Virus record (IMG/VR): IMGVR_UViG_3300044724_001206
Coordinates: 1-32,270 of that record
Origin: a virus
Lineage: Duplodnaviria; Caudoviricetes
Length of the DNA stretch: 32,270 nucleotides
Direction: 5' to 3' (one strand)
The notes under the pieces were generated by a model. That model saw only the letters and a program-made list of their open reading frames with translations, was not told where the DNA came from and did no database searches. The position numbers and the translations under genes are program-made. This document shows, in pieces, positions 1 through 19,859 of the stretch; position 1 is the first letter of the stretch, and each line of letters opens with the position of its first letter.

Positions 1-264
1 GCCCTCTTGTTCAGTCTTTTCAGCGATACGCACTAGGCGGCGTAATATATCATCCGCTTCAATTTTAGTGCGCTTTGTTTGTTCAGCCTTTAGTTCAGCG
101 ATCCTTGCCGATACGTTTGGATTACGAACAATCTGCCACGCATTCTTCTTGGCATGTTGTTCTCCGTAGCCCGCGCGTACAGCAGCTCGCAGTGCGTTGA
201 GATCTTTAATGAACTCTTGGCAAAACTGCTCTTGTTGCGGAGTTAGTGTGTCACCTTTAGGCAT
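1..264 (-). CDS. terS: Terminase small subunit, N-terminal part (runs off window start)
   Basis: Manual translation from ATG 264: MPKGDTLTPQQEQFCQEFIKDLNALRAAVRAGYGEQHAKKNAWQIVRNPNVSARIAELKAEQTKRTKIEADDILRRL. Matches the LT.KQ..F..E...DLNA..AA.RAGY HTH signature of Terminase_2-type TerS. Not in ORF track. Confidence 0.9.
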   Translation of the reverse strand, partial: MPKGDTLTPQQEQFCQEFIKDLNALRAAVRAGYGEQHAKKNAWQIVRNPNVSARIAELKAEQTKRTKIEADDILRRLVRIAEKTEQEG

Positions 265-271
265 AGTTAAT

Positions 272-300
272 ATTATACACGAAGTGGGCTTGTAATTCAA
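272..300 (-). promoter_or_regulatory. sigma70-type promoter for terS/late operon, probably leaderless mRNA
   Basis: TTGAAT (300-295) -N17- TATAAT (277-272). ATG lies 7 nt after the -10 box, with no Shine-Dalgarno. Confidence 0.7.
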
Positions 301-318
301 GTACCGTTGCTGTATAAT
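290..318 (+). promoter_or_regulatory. sigma70-type promoter divergent from and overlapping the terS promoter
   Basis: TTGTAA (290-295) -N17- TATAAT (313-318). No credible ORF downstream, only a structured segment. Confidence 0.6.
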
Positions 319-421
319 AGGGGGGCAGGGCCGAAAGGTCTTGCGTCTCCTGTATAGTGGGAGAGGATTCAGTGCAACACACACACTAACACTTCACACA
401 AAAGCACACCTCTCCCCTTTT
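319..421 (+). ncRNA. Candidate ~100 nt structured small RNA (GAAA-tetraloop hairpin, CA-rich-loop hairpin, U tract)
   Basis: Stem 319-332/337-351 closed by C(GAAA)G with several G-U pairs. Stems GGGAGAGG 359-366/CCTCTCCC 409-416 and GTGC/GCAC enclose a 28 nt G-free loop (376-403). TTTT follows; promoter directly upstream. Confidence 0.55.
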
Positions 422-427
422 ATCTCG

Positions 428-519
428 AAAAGCTAAAAAGCTAAAAAGCTAGAAAGCTAGCCGGTCGGCGGCCGGGCTGTCTTGAAAAGCTGAAAAGCTG
501 AAAAGCTAAAAAAAAAAAA
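428..519. repeat. Two arrays of 8-bp-period AAAGCT repeats flanking a GC-rich imperfect palindrome, then A12
   Basis: 4 units at 428-458, CCGGTCGGCGGCCGG at 461-475, GAAAAGCT x3 at 484-507, poly-A at 508-519. Confidence 0.85.
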
Positions 520-621
520 GTTTGAAATTTTGAAAAAATTTTTCGAGGTGCATATGTATATGTGTATGTGTGTGTAATTTTTCCTGCCCCCCTCAACCGA
601 TCGACCCACCCCCCACCAAAT

Positions 622-4739: not shown

Positions 4740-4921
4740 CACCGAAAGAACACCGAAAGAATACCGAGCGTACCTGTTTTCCTGTTAGGGGGGCAGGTAT
4801 GTATTATTATATAATAAAAATAATAATAAATTTTAAATCGTTAATAGGGGTTTCGCATACCCCACTCACCCCAAAAGTGGGTACGTTCGGTGTCATATCG
4901 GTGTCATATCGGTATTATTCG
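4733..4921. other. Putative replication origin: inverted iteron arms flanking an AT-rich core
   Basis: 42 bp arms 4733-4774 and 4880-4921 are imperfect inverted repeats. ACCGA at 4741/4752/4763 and TCGGT at 4887/4898/4909 (11 bp period). 37 bp pure A/T at 4802-4838. Confidence 0.6.
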
Positions 4922-4922
4922 A

Positions 4923-4950
4923 TTGACAAATAAGGAGATTATGATATGAT
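4923..4950 (+). promoter_or_regulatory. sigma70-type promoter abutting the right iteron arm
   Basis: TTGACA -N16- TATGAT with TGn extension. Confidence 0.55.
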
Positions 4951-9370: not shown

Positions 9371-9391
9371 TACAAAATACAGGAGATAAAT

Positions 9392-10648: not shown

Positions 10649-11725
10649 ATGGGTGAGTATGCAGTAAATAAAAACGTAGCATCGCAACTTACTGAGGGGG
10701 CAAGGATTGCGATAGTCATGGACTACCCGACCGTGACTGAAGTACGATTGAACAAGATGCTTGCCGGGGATTATATTCTTGGCAAAGTTTGTAAACTAGC
10801 AGGGATAAAGCTAGAAGATTGCATGCTCACCCACGTCTTTCAAAGACGACCGGCACAGGAAAACTTACAAAACTTTTTTCACAAGAGGAGTGAATACAAG
10901 GCTTTGTGCAAAGGTACAGAGTGGCGAACACCCTATCCGTCCTCGACGCTAGGGTTTCTCAAACAGGAGGCGCAACCACATCTGGAGAGGCTGTACAAGG
11001 AGATCAATGATATTAAACCTAATGTTATATTAGCACTGGGGGCAGTATCATTGTGGGCATTCACAGGGTATGATAAGATTGGAACTTATAGAGGGGCGCT
11101 CATCTCCTCTAACACCTCGCACATCAATGATGATATAAAAATAGTTCCCTCTTATGCCCTGTCGAGTGTCGCTAGAAATTACGCATTGAGATCTATCATG
11201 TATTCAGATTTCAAAAAAGCATTACAAGAATCAGAAACAACAGACATAGTAAATATAGAAAGAGAACTCTGGATCGAACCGAGTATAAACGACTTAGATA
11301 AATTTAAAGAAGACTTCATAAAGAAGGATAACGCAAAACAACCTTTGTCATTTGACATTGAAACAGCAGGCGGGCGAATAACTTGTATTGGGTTTGCCCC
11401 CTCTCCGACTCATGCCATTGTAGTTCCATTCACATACGGATACTGGAAGAATGATGATGAAACTAAAGCGTGGGACTGGGTTCGAGATTTACTAGAAGAT
11501 AAACAGATTGTAAAGGTGGCACAAAATCAATCATATGATGTGTCATGGTTAAAGTATAAACAAAACATAGATGTAAAGGGTATTGTACATGATACGATGC
11601 ATGCTCAACATTCTTTACAACCAGAAATGGAAAAAGGTTTAGGCTTCTTAGGCTCCATATACACTAACGAGGGTGCATGGAAAACTCTAGCCAAGTTTTC
11701 TGATAGCACGAAAGCCGATGAATAG
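10649..11725 (+). CDS. DNA polymerase A N-terminal subunit: degenerate uracil-DNA glycosylase-like domain fused to 3'-5' exonuclease (ExoI and ExoII only)
   Basis: UDG family 4-like EI..IKPNVILALGAVS; exonuclease motifs LSFDIET (I), AQNQSYD (II), HDTM; no ExoIII motif before the stop. Confidence 0.85.
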   Translation: MGEYAVNKNVASQLTEGARIAIVMDYPTVTEVRLNKMLAGDYILGKVCKLAGIKLEDCMLTHVFQRRPAQENLQNFFHKRSEYKALCKGTEWRTPYPSSTLGFLKQEAQPHLERLYKEINDIKPNVILALGAVSLWAFTGYDKIGTYRGALISSNTSHINDDIKIVPSYALSSVARNYALRSIMYSDFKKALQESETTDIVNIERELWIEPSINDLDKFKEDFIKKDNAKQPLSFDIETAGGRITCIGFAPSPTHAIVVPFTYGYWKNDDETKAWDWVRDLLEDKQIVKVAQNQSYDVSWLKYKQNIDVKGIVHDTMHAQHSLQPEMEKGLGFLGSIYTNEGAWKTLAKFSDSTKADE

Positions 11726-12078: not shown

Positions 12079-12277
12079 AAAAGATAATCATGAAAACATC
12101 GCAGGTTTATGGTCAGCATATTTAGATACTAAAGTTTCAGCACACGATGTTTCCATCTTAATGTTACTGTTAAAGGTAGCAAGATTAAAGTCTGGTCAAC
12201 CTTCCAAAGATACATACGTAGACATGGTAGGGTATTCAGCAATAGCGGGGGAACTGAGTGATAAAAGTAAGCAATAA
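11999..12277 (+). CDS. DUF6378-like protein (all-alpha, possibly nucleotide pyrophosphatase-related)
   Basis: R..EYG....N..NIA.LWS.YL....HDV...M.LLKVAR......D..VD..GY signature. Confidence 0.8.
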   Translation: MVINIEENLRQALKILKGPREKEYGNKKDNHENIAGLWSAYLDTKVSAHDVSILMLLLKVARLKSGQPSKDTYVDMVGYSAIAGELSDKSKQ

Positions 12278-13787
12278 TAATTTAGATTTAAAACCATACA
12301 ACGACGAGCAGATCAACTGGATATACTGTGCATTAGATTGTACGTTGACACAAGAGATTTGGTCTAAGATATCAGAAGAACTTGATGAGACAACAAAAGG
12401 TACGTATGAGTTTGAACTAAAAAGTCTCAAGCCTGCAATGGCTATGACGTTACGAGGTTTGAAAGTAGATGAAGATAAAGTCAAGGCAATAAAAAAACCT
12501 CTTAAAGAAAAGAGATTACGTCTTGAAAGAATGTTGCATTTGTTTTCACAAGCGGTATCTGGTAAAGATTTAAATCACAACAGCCCAGTGCAGTTGAAGA
12601 AACTTTTATATGAAGATTTAAATTTACCACCAGTTGTTTCTTATGCTAAAGGTAAACAAAAGATATCAACCAACAGAGATGCTTTAGAATCTTTATCTGA
12701 TTCTTATCCAAGAGCCAGACCTTTTTGCAGAACAATACTTGCACTACGTGACATTGATAAAAACTTAGGAGTGCTTGCGTCAAAGCGTGACCCTGATGGT
12801 AGAATAAGATGTTCTTATAATGTAGCAGGTACAGAGACAGGCAGGTGGTCATCAAGAGAATCACCATGGCGTACTGGTACAAACTTACAGAACATAACAA
12901 AAGATTTACGTGAAGTCTTTATACCAGATACAGGTAAGCAAATGTTTTATGCAGACTTAGAACAAGCGGAGTCGCGTGCCGTTGCATACTTGGCTGCGGA
13001 TGAAAATTATATCAGCGTGTGTGAAAGTACTGACTTGCATACTGAAGTTGTTAAAATGGTATGGCCTAACATGGGTTGGACAAACGATCCAAAACAAGAT
13101 AGAGCTATAGCAGATCGTAATTATTATCTACATCACAGTTACCGTGACATATGTAAACGAGCAGGACATGGAACAAACTATGGTGTGTCACCACACTCAC
13201 TAGCAAGACAGATAAAGATCAAAGTGTCACAGGCTACACGATTTCAGTTGCTTTATTTTGGTGGTGTGATATCATCAGTTAGTTTAGAAAGATGGCACAA
13301 ACAAGATCCAATGGGGGGCTATCAAGAATTGTTAGATATAGGAGAAAAGATTGGTAAAGATACGCTTAAGATTAGGGGGGCATTCCCGGGCATACGTGTG
13401 TGGCATAACACAATACAAAAAGAACTAATTGAGAAGGGTAGCTTGACAACACCTATGGGTAGGCGTAGACATTTTTGGGATAGACTAAAAGATGCGTCGA
13501 CCTTGCGTGCGGCGATTGCATTTGTACCGCAGTCAACAATAGGTGACTTGCTAAACTTAGGTTTGTGTCGAGTGTATGATGAACTACAAGAAGCAGGTGT
13601 AGAAATATTAGGTCAAGTACACGATGCAATACTGGGGCAATGTGATAAGGACAAAGTAAATGATCTTATGCCACAGGTTCTCGAGAGAATGCACAATCCA
13701 TTGATGGTCAATGGACGCAAAATGTTAATACCTTCTTCCGTAGAGGTGGGAGATAATTGGAAGGATTTAAAAACATGGACGATATAA
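12258..13787 (+). CDS. polA: Family A DNA polymerase catalytic subunit (ExoIII helix, thumb, palm, fingers)
   Basis: YCALD (ExoIII), NSP.QL..LLY, TETGRWSS, NLQNI, motif A ADLEQAE, motif B RDICKRAGHGTNYG, motif C QVHDA. Confidence 0.95.
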   Translation: MIKVSNNNLDLKPYNDEQINWIYCALDCTLTQEIWSKISEELDETTKGTYEFELKSLKPAMAMTLRGLKVDEDKVKAIKKPLKEKRLRLERMLHLFSQAVSGKDLNHNSPVQLKKLLYEDLNLPPVVSYAKGKQKISTNRDALESLSDSYPRARPFCRTILALRDIDKNLGVLASKRDPDGRIRCSYNVAGTETGRWSSRESPWRTGTNLQNITKDLREVFIPDTGKQMFYADLEQAESRAVAYLAADENYISVCESTDLHTEVVKMVWPNMGWTNDPKQDRAIADRNYYLHHSYRDICKRAGHGTNYGVSPHSLARQIKIKVSQATRFQLLYFGGVISSVSLERWHKQDPMGGYQELLDIGEKIGKDTLKIRGAFPGIRVWHNTIQKELIEKGSLTTPMGRRRHFWDRLKDASTLRAAIAFVPQSTIGDLLNLGLCRVYDELQEAGVEILGQVHDAILGQCDKDKVNDLMPQVLERMHNPLMVNGRKMLIPSSVEVGDNWKDLKTWTI

Positions 13788-18028: not shown

Positions 18029-18038
18029 AATAAAAGTG

Positions 18039-18067
18039 TTGACTTTAAAAATGTTTTGTGCTATTAT
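18039..18067 (+). promoter_or_regulatory. sigma70-type promoter
   Basis: TTGACT -N17- TATTAT with TGn extension. Confidence 0.65.
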
Positions 18068-18075
18068 ATAATCTT

Positions 18076-18127
18076 GGGGGGCAGAACGAGGCTAACTATG
18101 ATCACTCTTAGTTAGCTTCACTGTTTT
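18076..18127 (+). promoter_or_regulatory. Structured 5' leader, attenuator or terminator hairpin
   Basis: GAGGCTAACTA 18088-18098 pairs with TAGTTAGCTTC 18109-18119; lower stem GGGGCAG/CTGTTTT. Confidence 0.55.
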
Positions 18128-18132
18128 AGTGT

Positions 18133-18450
18133 GTGGATTTTACGACAGAACAATTAAAAAATTATATTAAAGACTATCAGAAGCGCGGTAAAGAAGCGTA
18201 TTCTAGATCACGAAGTACCCGTGTTGATATCAAAGACCGGGCGAAATATCATAGAGACTATCTTGATTCGCAAGCTATGATACGTAACATCAATAGTAAA
18301 TTAACAAAGAACGAATGGTTGTATGATGACTTACCAAATGGACATCACATAAAACATTTTAGAGTTCTAGCATCTGGTGATCCCAACAGGGTTGGTAAAT
18401 TAATAGATGGTTTTGGAAGAGAGTATGATGTACCAAGAGAAAGAAACTAA
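18133..18450 (+). CDS. Basic hypothetical protein (GTG start)
   Basis: 105 aa ORF downstream of the promoter and hairpin. Confidence 0.7.
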   Translation: MDFTTEQLKNYIKDYQKRGKEAYSRSRSTRVDIKDRAKYHRDYLDSQAMIRNINSKLTKNEWLYDDLPNGHHIKHFRVLASGDPNRVGKLIDGFGREYDVPRERN

Positions 18451-18655
18451 GTACGATGGTTACGCTAAGAAATTGTTTTATGATTGGCGTAACAAAAGAA
18501 AAATAAGACTGCCCATTTGGGAGAAACTAAATTACAAAGACCGAGATGAGTGGCGCGGTGTGGCTCAACTCATGAAACGTGAAAGAAAAGAAATGAAAAA
18601 ACTTTTCAAAAATACAGGAGATAAACATGAAAGACAAACTACTCGAAGCCGTTAA
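18425..18655 (+). CDS. Small basic hypothetical protein (start uncertain)
   Basis: In frame with track ORF 18407-18655; WEKL..KDRDEWR pattern. Confidence 0.65.
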   Translation: MMYQEKETKYDGYAKKLFYDWRNKRKIRLPIWEKLNYKDRDEWRGVAQLMKRERKEMKKLFKNTGDKHERQTTRSR

Positions 18656-19859
18656 TGCAGTTGTCTTAGCTAAGGGTAATAAATCAGATGCGGCTCGTAA
18701 ATTAAATATACCAAGGCCAACATTGATGACCCGTTTAGCGGCGGCGGAGCGTGAGAACATAGCACCTTCTGTTAAATCGCCAGACTTAGAAGTAGCTTTA
18801 GCGGAACAAAAGATGACGTATGAATTGCAGGTACGGGATTTAAAGAAACAACTAGAAGAGTCTACGTTACATAACATTACTGCAAGTTATGTTCGTAAAC
18901 ATATATTTAAATTAGGTGAGCACGAACCTAACCCACCGGAGTGGTTAATAAAAGCAAAGCCATCTAAGAGTACGCCGGGCGTACCTACATTATTCTTATC
19001 AGACTTTCACTACGGAGAAGTTGTAAAGAAAGATGCGGTTAATAATTTAAATAGCTTCAATAAAAAAATATCACAGAAGAGATTAAAAGAAACAGTAGAA
19101 AATGCTATTGATCTATGTCATAATCATATGGTCAATCCAAACTATCCGGGCATTGTCTTAGCGTTAGGTGGTGACATGATGTCTGGAAACATTCATGATG
19201 AATTAACCGAGACAAATGATGGCACAACTATCGATCATGTACTGGAATTGTTTGATCAAATGATATGGACAATTACTACATTGGCTGATAAGTTTGGTAA
19301 AGTATTTGTTCCAACAAGTTATGGTAATCACTCTCGTGCTTATCAACAATACAGGAACAAAGAAGCGGCGCATTTAAGTTTTGATTGGATGCTGTATAAT
19401 TTATTAGAGAAACATTTTAAATCTATTAAAGATACAAGAATTAAATTTCAGATACCAACTGGATTCGATGCATACTATAAAGTATACGACACTACATACC
19501 TACTAACACATGGAGATAGACTCGGTGTACGAGGAGGTACTGGTATTGTCGGAATGCTTGGGCCTATTGCAAGAGGAGTTCAGAAGGTTAGATCAGAATA
19601 TACTAGCGTTGGTAAGTCCATTGACTATGTTATCATGGGGCACTTCCACCAGTATATTTCTATCAAAGGAGCCATTGTAAATGGTTCCCTCAAAGGCTAT
19701 GACGAGTACGCTATGAGTAATCGTTTCGCTTTTGAAACACCTAAACAGGCTTTATGGTTTACACACCCCCAACATGGTGTGACTTTCCAAGTTCCTATCA
19801 TTGCAGAAGATGCACCGATTAAGAAACGAAAGAAAGAATGGCTTCAATGGGCGTCATAA
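18627..19859 (+). CDS. Calcineurin-like metallophosphoesterase with N-terminal Fis-like HTH and coiled coil
   Basis: GNKSDAARKLNIPRPTL HTH; SDFHYG, GGDMMSG, GNH, THGD, GHFHQ metal-binding motifs. Confidence 0.88.
   Translation: MKDKLLEAVNAVVLAKGNKSDAARKLNIPRPTLMTRLAAAERENIAPSVKSPDLEVALAEQKMTYELQVRDLKKQLEESTLHNITASYVRKHIFKLGEHEPNPPEWLIKAKPSKSTPGVPTLFLSDFHYGEVVKKDAVNNLNSFNKKISQKRLKETVENAIDLCHNHMVNPNYPGIVLALGGDMMSGNIHDELTETNDGTTIDHVLELFDQMIWTITTLADKFGKVFVPTSYGNHSRAYQQYRNKEAAHLSFDWMLYNLLEKHFKSIKDTRIKFQIPTGFDAYYKVYDTTYLLTHGDRLGVRGGTGIVGMLGPIARGVQKVRSEYTSVGKSIDYVIMGHFHQYISIKGAIVNGSLKGYDEYAMSNRFAFETPKQALWFTHPQHGVTFQVPIIAEDAPIKKRKKEWLQWAS

What the first reader, a model, noticed from the sequence alone, without database searches (positions are those of the whole stretch)
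313..421. Candidate phage small RNA with an exposed CA-rich loop, divergent from terS
Seen: its own promoter, a G-U-rich stem with a GAAA tetraloop (favours plus-strand RNA), and a second stem ending in a U tract that displays the G-free loop AACACACACACUAACACUUCACACAAAA. Established: CA-rich seeds pair with GU-rich RNAs (GcvB targets and the prophage anti-sRNA AgvB). Inference: a regulatory or sponge sRNA or, given its position beside terS and the terminal repeat arrays, a packaging-associated RNA.
Basis: partly seen in the sequence, partly recalled or inferred. Interest (0 to 1): 0.75.

Follow-up and report, generated by a model that had tools for sequence, protein, structure and literature searches.

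The report
Marine phage anti-ribosome-site small RNA
An uncultured group of ocean phages conserves, back to back with its DNA-packaging gene, a folded non-coding sequence with an unchanging 9-base stretch that matches the ribosome-binding sites of several of the phage's own genes, so it is likely a small RNA that would turn those genes down; no transcript or pairing has been shown.

Summary
It is a predicted ~97-nt two-hairpin RNA (about 324/325-421) behind a sigma-70-type promoter overlapping that of leaderless terS, in an uncultured ~60-kb marine podovirus group. The promoter pair is kept in 86 of 87 distinct loci; 19 of 22 base pairs show compensatory change; G·U outnumbers A·C 69 to 9 (plus-strand RNA). 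The CA loop varies (CU-rich in some clades; GcvB consensus in 0 of 59) and the U tract is kept in only 14 of 60. The invariant part is a single-stranded anti-Shine-Dalgarno seed, UCUCCUGUA (346-354). Its complement covers the ribosome-binding sites of Sak4 (9378), a nuclease (18613) and a 107-aa gene (6615). In relatives these sites change almost only in ways that keep pairing (38/42, 24/25; 30/188 in control phages). Best reading (0.6): a trans-acting sRNA repressing the phage's own recombination/replication genes. One subclade has a second RNA carrying the exact seed complement, a possible sponge. No Rfam match; transcript, host and timing unshown. This scan noted other anti-SD phage RNAs near terS on other DNA, none with this sequence.

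The parts
1..264 (-). terS (terminase small subunit), cut by the window end; predicted leaderless (ATG 7 nt after the -10 box)
   Evidence: PF03592 E 2e-23, phrog_51; ATG 6-7 nt after the -10 box in 72 of 86 loci
272..300 (-). predicted terS/late-operon promoter (-35 TTGAAT 300-295, -10 TATAAT 277-272)
   Evidence: minus-strand -10 TATAAT or TATACT in 81 of 86 loci
290..318 (+). predicted sRNA promoter (-35 TTGTAA 290-295, -10 TATAAT 313-318); the two -35 boxes overlap as TTG-N5-CAA
   Evidence: arrangement kept in 86 of 87 distinct loci, -10 box 25-28 nt before the seed
325..344 (+). P1, 8-bp 5' hairpin with GAAA loop; sequence free, pairing kept
   Evidence: 98.7% of cells paired, 7 of 8 pairs with double-sided change; 5 pairs also found on the plain MAFFT alignment
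346..354 (+). invariant single-stranded seed UCUCCUGUA (anti-Shine-Dalgarno; complement UACAGGAGA)
   Evidence: 59 of 59 distinct sequences; 73/73, 70/70 and 70/71 loci with enough upstream DNA, overlapping sets; median predicted P(unpaired) 0.94
356..418 (+). P2: G-rich/C-rich lower stem, 5'-side bulge (replaced by an extra hairpin in some relatives), short upper stem
   Evidence: 96.6% and 89.4% of cells paired; 7 of 9 and 5 of 5 pairs with double-sided change; inserted hairpins in L022, L037, L055, L057, L062
376..403 (+). G-free CA-rich loop of P2; CA- or CU-rich and of variable length in relatives; role unknown
418..421 (+). T4 tract, possible 3' end in this lineage only
   Evidence: 14 of 60 loci have 5 or more T in 8 nt after P2
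6615..6623 (+). predicted target: RBS TACAGGAGG of a 107-aa gene (ATG 6627)
   Evidence: seed duplex -14.6 kcal/mol, third of 39 start regions; ACAGGAGR in 5 of 7 homologues
9377..9387 (+). predicted target: RBS ATACAGGAGAT of the Sak4-like gene (ATG 9392), at the predicted 5' end of its mRNA (promoter TTGACA 9343 / TAATAT 9365)
   Evidence: -17.0 kcal/mol, joint best; 8-mer pairable in 38 of 42 distinct relatives; tree count; promoter
18612..18622 (+). predicted target: RBS ATACAGGAGAT of the phrog_284 nuclease gene (ATG 18627)
   Evidence: -17.0 kcal/mol, joint best; 8-mer pairable in 24 of 25 distinct relatives

Best explanation
This is likely a trans-acting small RNA of about 97 nt whose invariant single-stranded seed UCUCCUGUA would pair over the ribosome-binding sites of several of the phage's own mRNAs and so lower their translation. 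Shown: a conserved promoter pair, two covarying hairpins with plus-strand G·U pairs, an invariant seed, and seed complements at the start regions of the Sak4-like recombinase, a nuclease and a 107-aa gene (in relatives also SSB-like, DNA polymerase, peroxiredoxin, GroES and its upstream gene). Inferred: host sigma-70 polymerase makes the RNA from the promoter that overlaps the terS promoter; P1 and P2 protect the ends and hold the seed open; an 8-11 bp duplex blocks the 30S subunit; expression tied to the packaging promoter damps recombination/replication proteins as packaging begins. The timing is the weakest step, since both promoters look constitutive. The P2 loop is probably a protein- or second-RNA-binding surface.
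For: Structure: 95.8% of cells paired, 19 of 22 pairs with double-sided change, covariation 0.648 against 0.23 (shuffles) and at most 0.15 (slid). G·U 69, A·C 9. Promoter pair in 86 of 87 loci. Seed invariant while stems change freely. The three best seed duplexes among 39 start regions of the window are -17.0, -17.0, -14.6; the next is -12.0. ACAGGAGR makes up 34 of 166 AGGAG-type start sites in 8 contigs that carry the RNA, against 7 of 188 in 8 cultured phages without a model hit (Fisher p 5e-7; collapsed to gene families 11 of 75, p 0.003). Pairable 8-mer (G·U allowed): Sak4 38/42, nuclease 24/25, SSB-like 19/27; baseline 30/188. On the Sak4 tree (92 leaves) the base opposite the seed G changes 14 times but only 3 times out of C/T, whereas the four upstream flank positions change purine/pyrimidine class in 6/7, 8/9, 6/6 and 8/9 of their changes. 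Where peroxiredoxin is inserted at the head of the operon it carries AYAGGAGA (10 of 10 loci) and Sak4 keeps it in only 5 of 10.
Against: No discrete transcript: only low-depth, unstranded contigs from RNA libraries, one running 389-727 across the U tract. No conserved terminator (14 of 60). Five of the nine seed bases are simply the anti-SD core, so any AGGAG site pairs partly. The strict 9-mer enrichment is not significant at family level (7 of 75 vs 7 of 188, p 0.07). Phage DSL-LC04 has 4 ACAGGAGR and 5 TAYAGGAGR start sites among 33 with no model hit. The Sak4 site lies at a predicted transcription start and the nuclease and SSB-like sites overlap upstream codons, so other constraints could shape them. 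The seed's last A is invariant but the opposite target base is not (T in 26 of 42 and 6 of 25). On the nuclease tree the contrast with flanks is weak. Predicted targets include GroES-operon genes on the late strand, which does not fit a clean early-to-late switch. A3 was fitted to the model; the plain MAFFT alignment gave only P1. In several CU-loop relatives a downstream G run is predicted to pair with the seed if the transcript runs on.
Confidence: 0.6

Rival explanations
1. Same RNA and seed, but the main targets are host mRNAs (or a host RNA) bearing UACAGGAGA; the phage sites are by-products or secondary.
For: All 9 seed bases are invariant though phage targets keep only 8. Known phage sRNAs often act on host genes (PMC12197685, Table 1).
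Against: Seed complements are enriched and wobble-conserved at the phage's own start sites. The host is unknown: no close terS relative in 185,579 prokaryotic genomes.
Confidence: 0.13
2. The seed's main partner is a second phage non-coding RNA ('RNA2'); the two form a pair or complex, and mRNA control is secondary.
For: G001, G006, G007, G020 and L695 carry, behind a promoter-like site next to the putative origin, a conserved structured region with GTACAGGAGAT not followed by a start codon. It is the 11-nt complement of that subclade's seed, including the clade-specific C after it. In G006/G007 the next stretch is complementary to the P2 loop (-21 to -22 kcal/mol).
Against: No RNA2 in the window, nor in G002-G005 as far as held, nor in G016, G017, G018, G021; all are fragments. 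Loop pairing is weak for G001 (-9.8). The site is only partly accessible in the predicted folds. Only about five distinct sequences, closely related.
Confidence: 0.1
3. Packaging-associated RNA or transcription signal: a prohead RNA, or a transcript running into the neighbouring A-tract/GT block that helps terminase find its site.
For: Fixed position at the terS promoter. In CA-loop clades a TG-rich block 30-120 nt downstream is complementary to the loop (window -18.0 kcal/mol; 15 of 300 dinucleotide shuffles as good). No conserved terminator.
Against: CU-loop clades mostly lack the loop-block match and cognate pairs do not rank first. The phage has a protein TerS. The G-free loop has no partner within the RNA. 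This reading leaves the anti-SD seed and its conserved complements unexplained. Contig ends show no fixed terminus here.
Confidence: 0.07
4. AgvB-like sponge: the CA-rich loop titrates a host GU-rich sRNA.
For: The loop is large, exposed and nearly G-free in all clades (3.9% G). AgvB uses a CA-rich stretch against GcvB (PMC4104026, passages).
Against: CACAACA in 0 of 59; loop sequence and length vary and turn CU-rich; in AgvB the motif is in the 5' region of an Hfq-bound RNA with a terminator.
Confidence: 0.05
5. Not an independent RNA: a DNA element or a minus-strand leader/small ORF that uses TACAGGAGA as its own ribosome-binding site.
For: On the minus strand the seed reads as a typical RBS of this phage, and 17 of 59 sequences have a start codon 3-12 nt behind it.
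Against: 42 of 59 have no such start, and the window sequence shows none; G·U over A·C 69:9 and GNRA/UUCG loops mark the plus strand as RNA; a plus-strand promoter sits at fixed distance.
Confidence: 0.05

Closest known systems
Cuckoo / alpha-r14 sRNAs of Alphaproteobacteria
   Same: Free stems, invariant C/U-rich anti-SD-like motif.
   Different: Cuckoo RNAs have 2-4 hairpins each with CCUCCUCCC in the loop (PMC4615179, abstract). Here one motif, UCUCCUGUA, lies in the linker between two hairpins; no Rfam match.
P1/P7 c4 and P22 sar antisense RNAs
   Same: Phage-coded RNAs of 70-80 nt that act in trans on a phage mRNA (PMC12197685, Table 1 and passages).
   Different: They control one antirepressor message in temperate phages; here a short seed would address several replication/recombination genes. 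No Rfam match.
AgvB (EcOnc01) prophage anti-sRNA
   Same: Small phage RNA with a CA-rich single-stranded stretch.
   Different: No CACAACA, motif variable and in the 3' hairpin loop, no conserved terminator.
phi29 prohead RNA (recalled, no call)
   Same: Structured phage RNA gene in a non-coding region tied to packaging genes.
   Different: No Rfam match; no complementary loop pair seen; the phage codes a Terminase_2 TerS.

Membership tests
trans-acting base-pairing sRNA with anti-SD seed | own promoter and no conserved ORF | tested here: met
   promoter in 86 of 87 loci; SD + start + 10 codons in 7 of 59 (plus) and 17 of 59 (minus)
trans-acting base-pairing sRNA with anti-SD seed | conserved structure with an exposed conserved seed | tested here: met
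trans-acting base-pairing sRNA with anti-SD seed | seed complement conserved at translation starts elsewhere | tested here: met
   confounders listed under evidence against
trans-acting base-pairing sRNA with anti-SD seed | discrete transcript | tested here: inconclusive
   only unstranded low-depth contigs
trans-acting base-pairing sRNA with anti-SD seed | intrinsic terminator with U tail (Hfq-type sRNAs) | tested here: not met
   14 of 60 loci; the terminator scan does not call it in the window
trans-acting base-pairing sRNA with anti-SD seed | pairing-dependent repression of a target | not testable with these tools
   needs a reporter assay
AgvB-type anti-sRNA | GcvB R1 target consensus CACAACA in the 5' region | tested here: not met
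   0 of 59; definition from PMC4104026 passages
AgvB-type anti-sRNA | host with GcvB and Hfq | not testable with these tools
   host not identified
cuckoo / alpha-r14 | 2-4 hairpins, each loop CCUCCUCCC | tested here: not met
   motif string in 1 of 59; seed lies in a linker; no Rfam hit
phi29-type prohead RNA | match to a curated RNA family model | tested here: not met
   no Rfam hit at gathering or at E up to 10 over the element other than a 10.8-bit chance match
phi29-type prohead RNA | bound to proheads and needed for packaging | not testable with these tools
   no isolate

The most novel reading that the evidence does not exclude
An RNA-only timing circuit in an abundant marine phage group: one small RNA, made from the back of the packaging promoter and lacking an Hfq-type tail, represses a whole set of the phage's own replication, recombination and chaperone genes through a shared extended ribosome-binding site, and in one subclade a second phage RNA made beside the origin sponges it until late in infection.
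Probability: 0.25. Interest if true: 0.85.

Novelty: new variant of a known kind. Interest (0 to 1): 0.63.

Why it matters
Functions of sRNAs in lytic phages are little known (PMC8244752, passages), and the phage sRNAs tabulated in a 2025 review are mostly from temperate phages of laboratory or pathogenic hosts (PMC12197685). Here an uncatalogued RNA family comes with a named seed, named targets and an evolutionary sign of pairing, so the mechanism can be tested in a surrogate host with a reporter, without culturing the phage. If true, phages can run a multi-gene post-transcriptional programme on their own genes by giving them a common extended ribosome-binding site.

Tried and rejected
Rfam: nothing at gathering in the window; only chance-level hits at 260-560; nothing for RNA2. 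blastn of 1-960 against 50,697 phage records: none. Model R2 on 8 cultured relatives by capsid or replication genes (HTVC023P, HTVC027P, CRP-901, 023Pt_psg01 as 50-kb parts; DSL-LC04, Kuura, PaP2, VS-ABTNL-3 whole): best 16.8 bits, E 0.17. Promoter+seed pattern scan of IMG/VR: 119 loci, 66 with a terS hit; in the printed part of the output the structured hits were all beside terS, the rest looked like chance. Host: no close terS in prokaryotic genomes; capsid of G001 58-60% to DSL-LC04/HTVC023P/HTVC027P, RNR about 61% to pelagiphages, primase about 25% to PaP2-like phages; not enough to name a host. Expression: 7 RNA-type runs listed, none with raw reads; 4 laid; contigs at depth 2-9 overlap the element but also other parts of the phage, so they show neither ends, strand nor level. 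Loop targets: best start region -16.2 at a doubtful GTG start; no convincing partner. Loop versus downstream TG block: clade-level match only. Fixed genome end near the repeats: no pile-up among 74 distinct contig ends. Linking seed flanks to Sak4 variants in more clades failed: metagenome records not held, five Sak4 contigs lacked the RNA region. Literature: 9 searches found no description of this RNA. The catalogue of over ten thousand viral RNA candidates (PMC10690425) could hold it: 4 of its 6 text-held supplements gave no hit for the seed, two zip files and three large files could not be read, and I do not know whether the searched tables hold sequences.

Full report
Setting. The window is a 32-kb piece (53% complete) of a virus record. 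Its genes are those of a podovirus-like phage: terS on the minus strand at 1-264 (PF03592), then on the plus strand an exonuclease, a Sak4-like annealing protein, a split DNA polymerase A, primase, RNR and a phrog_284 nuclease, and ejection proteins on the minus strand at the far end. Near-complete relatives are 57-60 kb (G001, G006, G007). The capsid protein of G001 is 58-60% identical to those of DSL-LC04 and pelagiphages HTVC023P/027P, the primase only about 25% to PaP2-like phages. No cultured member was found and the host is unknown. No integrase appeared among the 39 window proteins scanned; lifestyle is not shown.

The observation. The two hairpins, the GAAA loop, the 28-nt G-free loop (376-403) and the T4 tract are there. 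But 313-318 is the -10 box, so the RNA would begin near 324-326. The plus-strand -35 box overlaps the -35 box of a minus-strand promoter whose -10 box lies 7 nt before the terS ATG.

Conservation. terS searches gave 80 viral, 80 metagenomic and, with the G006 protein, 80 further (largely overlapping) loci. TCTCCTGTA was present upstream in 73 of 73, 70 of 70 and 70 of 71 loci with enough DNA; short loci were set aside (7 and 10 in the first two sets), and the one miss ends inside an inserted gene. The back-to-back promoters are kept in 86 of 87 distinct loci, the -10 box always 25-28 nt before the seed. In G006 a 74-aa gene is inserted before terS and the RNA stays with the promoter. I built a model from 9 close sequences with the structure given and aligned 61 chosen loci to it (59 distinct). 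In that alignment 95.8% of cells pair, 19 of 22 pairs change on both sides, and the covariation score is 0.648 against 0.23 for shuffles and at most 0.15 for slid pairings. The alignment leans towards the model; as a check, the plain MAFFT alignment gave P1 with 5 of 5 pairs compensated but misaligned P2, and single-sequence folds recover both hairpins in most variants. G·U pairs outnumber A·C 69 to 9 and P1 loops include GAAA, GCAA and UUCG, which marks the plus strand as RNA. Five relatives have an extra hairpin in the P2 bulge.

What is and is not conserved. Only the nine linker bases are invariant. The P2 loop keeps its character (3.9% G) but not its sequence: CACACA in 47 of 59, CUCUC in 19, neither in 2. 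CACAACA, the GcvB-target consensus carried by AgvB (PMC4104026, passages), is in 0 of 59. A U tract follows P2 in 14 of 60, so the family's 3' end is not defined by an intrinsic terminator.

Targets. The seed is an extended anti-Shine-Dalgarno sequence. In the window its exact complement lies 5 nt before the ATGs of Sak4 (9378) and the nuclease (18613), with a near match before a 107-aa gene (6615) and one exact match inside the large minus-strand gene. These three are the best of 39 start regions (-17.0, -17.0, -14.6; next -12.0). Over 8 RNA-bearing contigs ACAGGAGR is 34 of 166 AGGAG-type start sites, against 7 of 188 in 8 cultured phages with no model hit, and 1 of 75 in the three of matching GC; collapsed to gene families it is 11 of 75 (p 0.003). 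The strict 9-mer form is 22 of 166 (p 0.001) but 7 of 75 families (p 0.07). Among relatives the 8-mer stays pairable, G·U allowed, in 38 of 42 Sak4, 24 of 25 nuclease and 19 of 27 SSB-like leaders, against a baseline of 30 of 188; three neighbouring genes have AYAGGAGR in 0 of 30, 0 of 20 and 0 of 48 leaders. On a Sak4 tree the base opposite the seed G flips 14 times, 11 of them between C and T, while flanking bases change class almost every time; on the nuclease tree the contrast is weak. When peroxiredoxin is inserted ahead of Sak4, it carries the site (10 of 10) and Sak4 keeps it in 5 of 10.

Caveats on targets. The Sak4 site sits at a predicted transcription start and the nuclease and SSB-like sites overlap upstream codons, so other constraints may contribute. 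DSL-LC04 uses such sites (5 of 33) with no RNA hit. The seed's final A has no conserved partner, which hints at a target I have not seen. GroES-operon genes on the late strand also carry the site.

A second RNA. In G001, G006, G007, G020 and L695 a non-coding, covarying region behind a promoter-like site near the putative origin holds GTACAGGAGAT with no start codon behind it. These phages belong to the subclade whose seed is followed by C, so the match is 11-12 nt. In G006/G007 the next bases complement the P2 loop. It has no Rfam match and is absent from the equivalent place in the window. It may be a sponge or partner; the sample is small.

Expression. Four marine metatranscriptome assemblies from two studies have contigs over the element at depth 2-9 (278-428, 362-542, 385-542, 389-727), and three of them also elsewhere in the phage. 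They cannot show strand, ends or level.

Mechanism. Shown: promoter pair, structure, strand bias, invariant seed, conserved complements. Inferred: transcription, pairing, blocked initiation, and coupling to the packaging promoter as a way to damp replication and recombination proteins. I give this 0.6; host targets 0.13; RNA2 as main partner 0.10; packaging role 0.07; AgvB-like sponge 0.05; not an independent RNA 0.05.

Comparison and novelty. It works like anti-SD sRNAs (cuckoo family; PMC4615179, abstract) and like the trans-acting phage RNAs c4 and sar (PMC12197685, passages and Table 1), but fails membership of cuckoo, AgvB and any Rfam family. Nine literature searches found no description; the supplements of PMC10690425 that hold alignments could not be read and may contain it. 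Earlier notes of this scan describe other phage RNAs with anti-SD motifs near terS or integrase on other DNA (unchecked), none by sequence. Verdict: a new variant of a known kind, interest 0.63.

Noticed in passing
L203:15600-15825 (-), L205:17540-17765 (-), L210:5325-5566 (+), L695, L697; 5' half also in L692: Second conserved structured non-coding RNA (~220-240 nt) behind a promoter-like site, no Rfam match; modular; holds the exact complement of the sRNA seed. In G001 followed by tRNA-Cys.
   Followed up: partly
window 4740-4935: Probable replication origin: ACACCGAAAG direct repeats, an AT-rich core and inverted copies; same layout in G001, G003, G006, G007.
   Followed up: no
window 521-615: Conserved block downstream of the RNA: A/T tracts, GAGGT motif, TG- or TA-rich run, then a C run (CA-loop clades) or a G run (CU-loop clades). 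Possibly a terminase or host-factor site; in CA clades complementary to the P2 loop.
   Followed up: partly
window 427-520: GAAAAGCT 8-nt repeats flanking a GC-rich inverted repeat; present in some relatives only, copy number varies between strains.
   Followed up: no
window 290-300: Two -35 boxes overlap as the palindrome TTG-N5-CAA in 86 of 87 loci, so the sRNA and terS promoters would compete for polymerase or share a dimeric regulator.
   Followed up: partly
L050, L053, L056, L059, L065-L072, L076, L079, just 3' of P2: A GGGGG run after P2 is predicted to pair with the seed if the transcript extends, a possible switch or processing signal.
   Followed up: no
window 10649-11725 and 12258-13787: DNA polymerase A split into a uracil-DNA-glycosylase-like plus 3'-5' exonuclease gene and a polymerase gene, with two small genes between; the first has no AGGAG site in 48 of 48 distinct leaders.
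   Followed up: no
L519 (DSL-LC04) 18035-18870 and 26802: Four small genes share the start-site motif TACAGGAGAA although no copy of this RNA was found in that phage.
   Followed up: no
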